DNA of 63,883 bases from positions 11,036,001 to 11,099,883 of the forward strand of contig OZ024753.1 in the NCBI GenBank assembly GCA_964016885.1, written 5' to 3'. Of this stretch, positions 60,037-60,790 are shown in pieces (within the stretch, counting starts at the first letter, position 1; every line of letters starts with the position of its first letter). The stretch is from Eledone cirrhosa. Taxonomy: Eukaryota. Position numbers and translations under genes: made by a program. The notes below the pieces were generated by a model. It was not told the origin of the DNA. It saw only the letters and a program-made list of their open reading frames with translations, and made no database searches.

Positions 60037-60710
60037 CCATGCGACCTGGAGGCCGAAGGTTGTATATTTCATAGCCATATCCCTACCCCATAGGAGAATT
60101 ATCTCTGCCAGACAGTATCTGAGCCCCTGTATATGACCTCACAGTGAAGTGTATAAATTATACTTTGTTAAAGTAGTAAATAAACAAAAGTATCATAAAA
60201 AATGTTCAACTAAAGTTCATTCCCGTTTGGGCTGTGTATGTTAGACGAGGCAACTAATGAGTGATATTTTACATATGTATCTATATTGCCGTTATTGTCA
60301 CTCGCTTCAAACAACCTGACTTTAAGGGAACAGTATTAAGTGATGAAAGAAGTGAAACTGCGGTATGTTAAAAGGGTTTACAAGTAAATATTAATAACAA
60401 TGCTATCGTAATCTCTTACTTTCTGTGATGAAAAGAGTTGTGTTCAGACAGAAACATAGGCTTCCTCCTTGATCTGTGAAAGCCAAGATCTTAACCAGTT
60501 CAAACCTTCCAAGTATCCAGTGTATATATATCCTGATGGCCTCCAAAAACAACGGTCAATTTTTAAAGGGTACGTCAATGTCTATTTATAAAACTGTTAT
60601 ATATTGTATTTTGTCTGATGAAGGCATACCATAATGTAACTTGGTATCCTTGAAATATATATAATGAAAGAAATATGGTTTTATAAATATAGTTTCCATG
60701 TATTAATATC

Positions 60711-60790
<80 letters not shown>

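What the first reader, a model, noticed from the sequence alone, without database searches (positions are those of the whole stretch)
60522..60790. Filled vs empty insertion site for a hammerhead element within one window
Seen: the right arm of the inverted duplication has a ~180-bp hammerhead element inside the (TA)n between ...AAGTATCCAGTG and CCAGTTCGAA. The left arm (45752-45808) has only pure (TA)n at the same position. Inference: family A was mobile after the duplication and targets TA microsatellites. The alternative is deletion from the left arm by TA-TA recombination.
Basis: partly seen in the sequence, partly recalled or inferred. Interest (0 to 1): 0.75.

Follow-up and report, generated by a model that had tools for sequence, protein, structure and literature searches.

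The report
Penelope retroelement end in TA repeat
One copy of a locally duplicated stretch carries a 180-base end piece of a Penelope-type jumping gene, with a predicted self-cutting hammerhead RNA, inside a TA repeat while the other copy does not; it most likely jumped in rather than being lost, and both the element type and its taste for TA repeats are already known.

Summary
The right arm has 60532-60711 between (TA)4T and (TA)~39; the left arm has pure (TA)28. The piece is a solo pseudo-LTR of a young Penelope-like retrotransposon: 383 exact core matches and an open 742-aa RT + GIY-YIG ORF with Hydra-clade motifs behind the same pLTR. TA targeting is real (81 of 86 ends) but published for this clade (PMC8557442).

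All 9 outgroup copies of the host repeat that span the site lack both element and TA. The TA tract is thus a locus-specific addition, flanked by a 13-bp repeat that family A does not make and older than the element. Insertion beats loss (~85:15). 'After the duplication' is not established: the clocks give P=0.11-0.89, and another sample hints that the arms descend from alleles.

The most interesting part is the family footprint: a sharp 5' start at an Inr-like site, and one short plus one long 3' end in 24 of 28 paired insertions. The scan noted hammerhead/Penelope elements in TA tracts before, on other DNA of this genome and others.

The parts
60532..60711 (+). Solo pseudo-LTR (tail-less form) of a Hydra-type Penelope-like element, family A; starts at the family's 5' hotspot and ends at the short 3' end
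   Evidence: 97-98% identical to dispersed copies; same pLTR precedes an open ORF in L061; ends mapped
60601..60677 (+). Type I hammerhead motif: stem I 60607-14/60664-71, core CTGATGA 60615-21, stem II 60622-51, GAAA 60652-55, 2-bp stem III with palindromic loop; predicted cut after 60663; one stem I mismatch private to this copy
   Evidence: cleavage untested
60523..60531 (+). 5' part of the target TA tract; last 3 nt (TAT) also match the element's own upstream sequence
60712..60790 (+). 3' part of the target TA tract, TG(TA)30CA(TA)7T
60495..60507 (+). First copy of a 13-bp direct repeat of host sequence; single in outgroups
60508..60522 (+). 15-bp locus-specific filler between the repeat and the TA tract; the junction occurs only 3 times in the genome, all in this window
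60791..60803 (+). Second copy of the 13-bp repeat, with an A>G change shared by both arms (9 of 9 outgroup alignments have A)
60037..61865 (+). Right arm: derived copy (host homology starts later than on the left; 10 of 12 arm substitutions are derived here)
45001..46382 (-). Left arm: likely donor locus; old dispersed host repeat plus 96-bp minisatellite
45752..45808 (-). Empty site, pure (TA)28
44900..45004 (-). Third partial copy of the 5' flank and filler, followed by (TG)n(TA)12 and unrelated DNA; no element; keeps the ancestral C where both arms have G

Best explanation
The 180-bp piece is the hammerhead-bearing pseudo-LTR of a young Penelope-like retrotransposon with Hydra-clade motifs, and it was most likely inserted by target-primed reverse transcription into an already existing TA tract, so that the left arm likely shows the never-filled site. 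Likely order: (1) a repair- or slippage-type event put a 13-bp duplication, 15 bp of filler and a TA tract into an old dispersed repeat (product shown, mechanism inferred); (2) the stretch was copied 14 kb away in inverted orientation (shown; left as donor inferred); (3) the element's GIY-YIG endonuclease nicked the TA tract, RT started at the shorter of two internal start sites and ran ~185 nt to a preferred 5' stop, probably the RNA 5' end at an Inr-like TCACT, and joined the target through TAT microhomology (ends shown, enzymology inferred from PMC11167929). Step 3 on the right arm after step 2 is favoured only weakly (about 55-60% of all histories).
For: Same pLTR + 85-nt tail + open 742-aa ORF in L061. 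RWR, DKT, YRDD, CxCx5C, CxxC-E and N-CxH motifs are present in P0001; DKT in 100, CxCx5C in 104 of 120 listed homologues. 81 of 86 terminal 3' ends lie in TA. 16 genome-wide copies have the same (TA)nT|CCTG junction, 15 besides this one, each with different flanks. No exact flanking repeat over 9 nt outside the TA in 82 of 83 insertion blocks; null maximum 11 in 400 pairs. So the 13-bp repeat is not this family's mark. The TA tract looks older than the element: P(element as old) = 0.01, from 1 change in the repeat pair and 1 against the third copy. The third copy lacks the element. In sample S1, contigs of 3 runs show the empty and third-copy junctions and none shows the filled junction among the pieces listed.
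Against: The clock cannot order insertion and duplication: P = 0.58 / 0.84-0.89 / 0.11 depending on the lineage used. Outgroups lack the TA tract, so they do not test precise loss. The direct-repeat test needs exact matches and scores the window's own 13-bp repeat as only 7 nt; in several blocks one end was the edge of my reference, not of the element. The age of the TA tract rests on 2 substitutions. Logan contigs show presence, not absence, and 52 pieces were not displayed. Pfam finds no RT or GIY-YIG family in P0001. No tree with reference Hydra elements was built. The MFE fold is not the hammerhead.
Confidence: 0.8

Rival explanations
1. Insertion on an allele before the duplication. The element entered the TA tract on one haplotype at the donor locus, that haplotype was copied to the right-arm position, and the assembled chromosome carries an empty allele at the left. 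No loss, but not 'mobile after the duplication'. (This shares the best explanation's insertion claim and differs only in timing.)
For: In S1, run X1, the first 110 bp appear as two half-depth contigs, one with right-arm letters (depth 3.6) and one with 5 differences (3.2). The shared stretch has depth 7.2 and the left-type stretch beyond it 6.9, as for one heterozygous locus. Only left-arm letters are seen at 60333-60452. On the left-lineage clock the element is older than the split with P=0.89.
Against: Depths of 3-7 are noisy; run X3 lists no right-type contig there. Gene conversion from the right arm would give the same mosaic. It needs a recombination within 14 kb.
Confidence: 0.27
2. Loss from the left arm. 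The element inserted into the TA tract before the duplication and was later removed from the donor copy by slippage or single-strand annealing between the 9-nt and ~79-nt TA stretches.
For: It would leave a pure (TA)n, as seen. The element's 2 private substitutions in 163 scored columns (1.2%) match the right arm's derived rate (10/647, 1.5%). With flat age priors, a 3-difference count that included one homopolymer artefact gave Bayes factors of 0.4-0.6 for insertion against this model.
Against: It needs one more event, using only 9 nt of homology on one side. The third copy, which appears to have split before the arms did, lacks the element. S1 shows the empty junction at full single-copy depth.
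Confidence: 0.12
3. Single event. The element inserted at a non-TA site, making the 13-bp target duplication, the filler and the TA tail itself, and was later deleted from the left arm.
For: Outgroups have neither TA nor element (9 of 9). PLEs of other clades make 8-10 bp TSDs (PMC3846280, passages).
Against: No such flanking repeat in 82 of 83 family blocks. P(element as old as the tract) = 0.01. The 5' TA in the 15 other same-junction copies is mostly long and not part of the element, so it is target-derived.
Confidence: 0.04
4. The 180-bp unit is an independent non-autonomous retrozyme or SINE rather than a piece of a PLE.
For: The unit has a preferred 5' start (22 of 72 internal starts in one 10-nt bin), and many copies are short.
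Against: 136 exact copies read through the start into upstream element sequence. The same unit flanks ORF-bearing copies L061 and L148. No tandem monomer arrays were seen in the loci examined (output partly cut).
Confidence: 0.05

Closest known systems
Hydra clade of C-terminal EN+ Penelope-like elements (Craig et al. 2021, PMC8557442; abstract, sections 6, 11, 12, 15 and passages read)
   Same: Single ORF with RT then GIY-YIG-like EN; DKT, CxCx5C linker, CxxC and CxH around E and N; hammerhead present; insertion into (TA)n; partial tandems, inverted 5' copies, tail at one end.
   Different: RWR instead of RWK; tail about 87 nt against 30-40 nt quoted for PLEs in general; unit about 4.3 kb with long UTRs against 'generally <3 kb'. 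The passages read report few molluscan families.
PAc Poseidon element with two internal RT start sites (Frangieh et al. 2024, PMC11167929; parts 1-2 of 4 read)
   Same: Two discrete 3' ends bounding an optional tail; copies extend past the hammerhead cut site, fitting an uncleaved template; AT-rich targets.
   Different: Here both start sites lie upstream of the ATG and both match the target (TATAT-like), whereas PAc starts inside the ORF at sites not homologous to the target. A one-short/one-long rule is quantified here (24 of 28).
Adineta vaga Penelope pLTRs (PMC3846280; passages read)
   Same: ~200-bp pLTR, Inr-like TCACT, palindromic head-to-head junctions, solo pLTRs, optional tail on one arm.
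   Different: A. vaga copies often have 8-10 bp TSDs; family A shows none outside the TA.
Type I / minimal hammerheads of metazoan PLEs (Cervera & de la Pena 2014, PMC4209133; part 1 of 4 read)
   Same: Type I, 1-2 bp helix III with palindromic loop, expected to cut only as a dimer, mostly single motifs from truncated PLEs.
   Different: Stem I of 8+5 bp and a long stem II with a conserved mismatch at its fourth position.
Animal non-LTR retrozymes (preprint 10.64898/2026.07.22.740005; part 1 of 5 read)
   Same: Type I hammerhead in a short non-coding unit related to pLTRs.
   Different: No tandem monomer array here; the unit is colinear with an autonomous element.

Membership tests
EN+ Penelope-like element | Single ORF with RT and C-terminal GIY-YIG endonuclease flanked by pLTRs | tested here: met
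   L061 ORF 742 aa with YRDD at 352 and VVY..YVG at 620; Pfam scan itself gave no RT/EN hit
EN+ Penelope-like element | Partial tandems, inverted 5' copies, optional tail | tested here: met
   44 short and 41 long 3' ends among 93 segments
Hydra clade | DKT in place of DKG | tested here: met
   P0001 position 118; 100 of 120 homologues
Hydra clade | RWK motif | tested here: inconclusive
   P0001 has RWR at 37; RW[KR] in 102 of 120 homologues
Hydra clade | CxCx5C linker; CxxC and CxH beside conserved E and N | tested here: met
   positions 601, 699 and 714 onward
Hydra clade | CCHH motif absent from EN | not tested
   no alignment to canonical PLE ENs was made
Hydra clade | Insertion into (TA)n | tested here: met
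   81 of 86 terminal 3' ends
Hydra clade | RT groups with Hydra references in a tree | not testable with these tools
   no named Repbase Hydra sequences were at hand; supplements of PMC8557442 were not opened and may hold them
Naiad / Chlamys | N-terminal endonuclease, no canonical hammerhead | tested here: not met
   EN is C-terminal and a hammerhead is present
Type I hammerhead ribozyme | Conserved core with three covarying helices | tested here: met
   helix III pairs never vary, so they give no covariation
Type I hammerhead ribozyme | Self-cleavage | not testable with these tools
   MFE fold differs; needs an in vitro assay, monomer against dimer
Non-LTR retrozyme | Tandem monomers with no linked ORF | tested here: not met
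   single unit here; colinear with ORF-bearing copies

The most novel reading that the evidence does not exclude
The copies of this family record the whole Hydra-clade reaction. RT copies to a fixed RNA 5' end at the TCACT initiator: 22 of 72 internal starts fall in one 10-nt bin, a full-length copy starts there, and three diverged subfamily copies start there too. The two target strands are primed at different, target-complementary UA sites, so head-to-head insertions carry one short and one long arm almost without exception (24 of 28). Solo 185/280-nt pLTRs like this one would then be complete products of priming near the RNA 5' end, not random truncations: a direct route from PLE to retrozyme-like units, testable with the open ORF found here.
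Probability: 0.45. Interest if true: 0.5.

Novelty: new member of a known kind. Interest (0 to 1): 0.27.

Why it matters
As a filled/empty pair it is a clean illustration of published biology (Hydra-clade PLEs insert in (TA)n) and it does not date mobility. Its value is practical. The family is young, has at least one open ORF, and has sharply defined 5' and 3' ends. PMC8557442 names an in vitro system for PLE tandem/inverted structures and microsatellite bias as the open task, and this family is a ready candidate. The site also shows that a TA tract can arise with a short duplication inside an old repeat and then be colonised.

Tried and rejected
Rfam at gathering score: 0 hits. Pfam on P0001: only a sub-threshold VasL hit, ignored.

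Filler as the end of another dispersed family: rejected, since the junction occurs 3 times, all here. Outgroup L056 has a TA tract, but after unrelated sequence upstream of the site. A second hammerhead at the 5' CTGATGG that would explain the 5' hotspot: rejected, because the motif is not kept in related subfamilies. Naiad membership: rejected on domain order.

Flat-prior Bayes factors (0.4-1.6) were uninformative and counted one homopolymer artefact; they were redone with homopolymer and polymorphic columns removed and one outlier copy of 110 left out of the prior.

No RNA holder was listed, which is no evidence on expression. Runs of other organisms (X4, X8) hold only small shares; X8 shows paralogous host copies running straight on without TA and no orthologue. 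RAD run X21 does not cover the junction. L107 was dropped before the counts as a duplicate of L106's left flank. Earlier-findings look-ups by place and by sequence returned nothing.

Four paper searches found no description of this family or of a 5' start hotspot in Hydra PLEs; subscription papers, Repbase and supplements were not seen. PMC13282606 (passages) lists recently active Penelope families in an octopus without clade detail.

Full report
Observation. The right arm reads flank, CCAGTG, (TA)4T, a 180-bp insert (60532-60711), about 39 TA units, then CCAGTTCG. The inverted left arm has the same flanks around pure (TA)28. The arms differ at 12 of 647 aligned flank positions. The window lies in G000, a 3.0-Gb genome; the best named homologue of the element's protein is from Argonauta hians, which suggests a cephalopod host (inference).

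What the insert is. A genome search gave 2023 candidates; 40 were scored, and the full-length hits were 97-98% identical. An exact 22-mer of the hammerhead core occurs 383 times. Most copies continue upstream into shared sequence (136 exact read-through junctions). In L061 the same unit is followed by an 85-nt tail and an open 742-aa ORF. The protein has RWR, DKT, YRDD, a CxCx5C linker, a VVY..YVG endonuclease motif, and CxxC-E and N-CxH; these recur in most of 120 listed homologues. [quoted passage not shown] Pfam gave no support either way and no reference tree was built, so clade membership rests on motifs. A second full-length copy, L148, is 96.6% identical with one stop.

Hammerhead. The core lies at 60615-60655. 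Rfam misses it and the MFE fold differs. Across 23 hand-picked variants, stems I and II covary (12 of 15 pairs with two-sided changes, 0/500 shuffles as high, slid controls far lower). Helix III is 2 bp with a palindromic loop, the dimer-dependent type I form described for PLEs (PMC4209133). The predicted cut after 60663 is 48 nt inside the insert, so the template was not cut there, as found for PAc (PMC11167929). Cleavage is untested.

Family footprint. I examined 64 loci from the first matches on contigs C1 and C2 (93 segments; 63 loci and 91 segments after dropping L107). The 3' ends are 44 short and 41 long of 93, and 81 of 86 terminal ends run into TA. Of 72 segments starting inside the reference, 22 (19 loci) start in one 10-nt bin, against 0.8 per bin upstream and 2.7 downstream. 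That bin follows an Inr-like TCACT, also noted in A. vaga pLTRs (PMC3846280). Full-length L148 starts there, and so do three diverged subfamily copies (window 21535, L062, L131). The window's insert starts there too, as do 15 other TA-embedded copies with different flanks. In 24 of 28 two-segment loci one arm ends short and the other long; the other four are one eroded pair, one odd pair and two tandems running into the ORF. Two RT start sites bounding a tail are known (PMC11167929). Reading the 5' bin as the RNA start is my inference.

Polarity. The flank is an old dispersed repeat. Of 30 loci fetched, 4 are this window and 9 distinct outgroup loci span the site; all 9 read straight through with neither TA nor element. 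Both arms instead carry a 13-bp duplication around 15 bp of filler and the TA tract, and that junction occurs only three times in the genome, all here. So the outgroups show that the element is derived, but they cannot separate gain on the right from loss on the left.

Did the element make the tract? In 82 of 83 insertion blocks no exact repeat over 9 nt flanks the TA; the exception lies in low-complexity DNA. The test is blunt: it scores the window's own repeat at 7 nt. Two substitutions fall between the tract's origin and the arm split (the A>G in the repeat, and a C>G against the third partial copy at 44944-45004). The element has only 2 private changes in 163 scored columns, giving P=0.01 that it is as old as the tract. 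The tract therefore most likely came first. The third copy has (TG)n(TA)12 and no element, though its break inside the microsatellite weakens this. In sample S1, contigs from three runs show the third-copy junction or TA continuing 9-13 nt past the insertion point, and no listed piece shows the filled junction (contigs cannot prove absence).

Timing. The left arm keeps about 90 bp more host homology and is the likely donor. Ten of 12 arm substitutions are derived on the right (binomial p=0.04). Because of this asymmetry the clock is ambiguous: P(element younger than the split) is 0.58 pooled, 0.84-0.89 on the right lineage and 0.11 on the left. In run X1 the first 110 bp appear as two half-depth contigs of left and right type, while beyond them only left letters appear at full depth. 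This looks like one heterozygous locus and raises the possibility that the arms descend from alleles. My split: insertion after duplication about 0.57, insertion on an allele before it about 0.27, loss about 0.16 over both loss models.

Comparison and verdict. It works like, and by motifs is, a Hydra-type Penelope-like element. It is not a Naiad and not a tandem retrozyme. TA targeting, tails, inverted arms, solo pLTRs and pLTR hammerheads are all in print. Earlier notes of this scan report the same kind of elements in this genome and others; I took them as leads only. One of them, on permuted hammerheads, prompted the check for a second core at the 5' end, which failed. The finding is real and a new member of a known kind; interest 0.27. 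The sharp 5' start and the one-short/one-long rule are the parts worth a specialist's time.

Noticed in passing
L061:5175-7403 (G000:C3:251851174-251853402): Open 742-aa Hydra-type PLE ORF with an Asn-rich stretch between RT and EN, preceded by a head-to-head pLTR pair; candidate active copy. N-rich inserts are described for A. vaga Penelope (PMC3846280).
   Followed up: partly
window 60037-60954 vs 46292-45589: 10 of 12 substitutions between the arms are derived on the right arm (p=0.04), and the right arm begins after a TA-rich tract with a short repeated CCAT. This may reflect error-prone copying or an allelic origin.
   Followed up: partly
window 21370-21801 and 55945-56208: Two older family-A-like head-to-head insertions with tails, 72-85% identical to the element; the first starts at the same CTATCC position.
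   Followed up: partly
window 21934-21957 (-), 22100-22480, 22727-22754, 59821-59845 (-): Further hammerhead-like cores of other families, several in head-to-head pairs between TA tracts.
   Followed up: no
L082 5' junction; L085, L105, L116, L120: 5' ends with a duplicated first 9-10 nt, or with fold-back hairpins right at the 5' hotspot, as expected if the cDNA reaches the template end and re-primes.
   Followed up: partly
L106 and L107 (C1:212.54 Mb and C1:213.10 Mb): Two filled sites share the left flank and element but differ in the right flank: a duplication after insertion with a break in the TA tail.
   Followed up: no
flanks of L021, L022, L071, L072, L003: Family-A copies often sit in the TA tracts next to ends of other hammerhead-bearing families, forming nested chains.
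   Followed up: no
window 45001-45560 and 60954-61865: The 48/96-bp minisatellite differs in unit number and order between the arms and was not matched in the outgroup host copies.
   Followed up: no
alignment A1, column 25: A C at the fourth position of stem II is nearly invariant and mismatched (C.C or C.A) across otherwise unrelated hammerhead families; it may be a tertiary contact.
   Followed up: no
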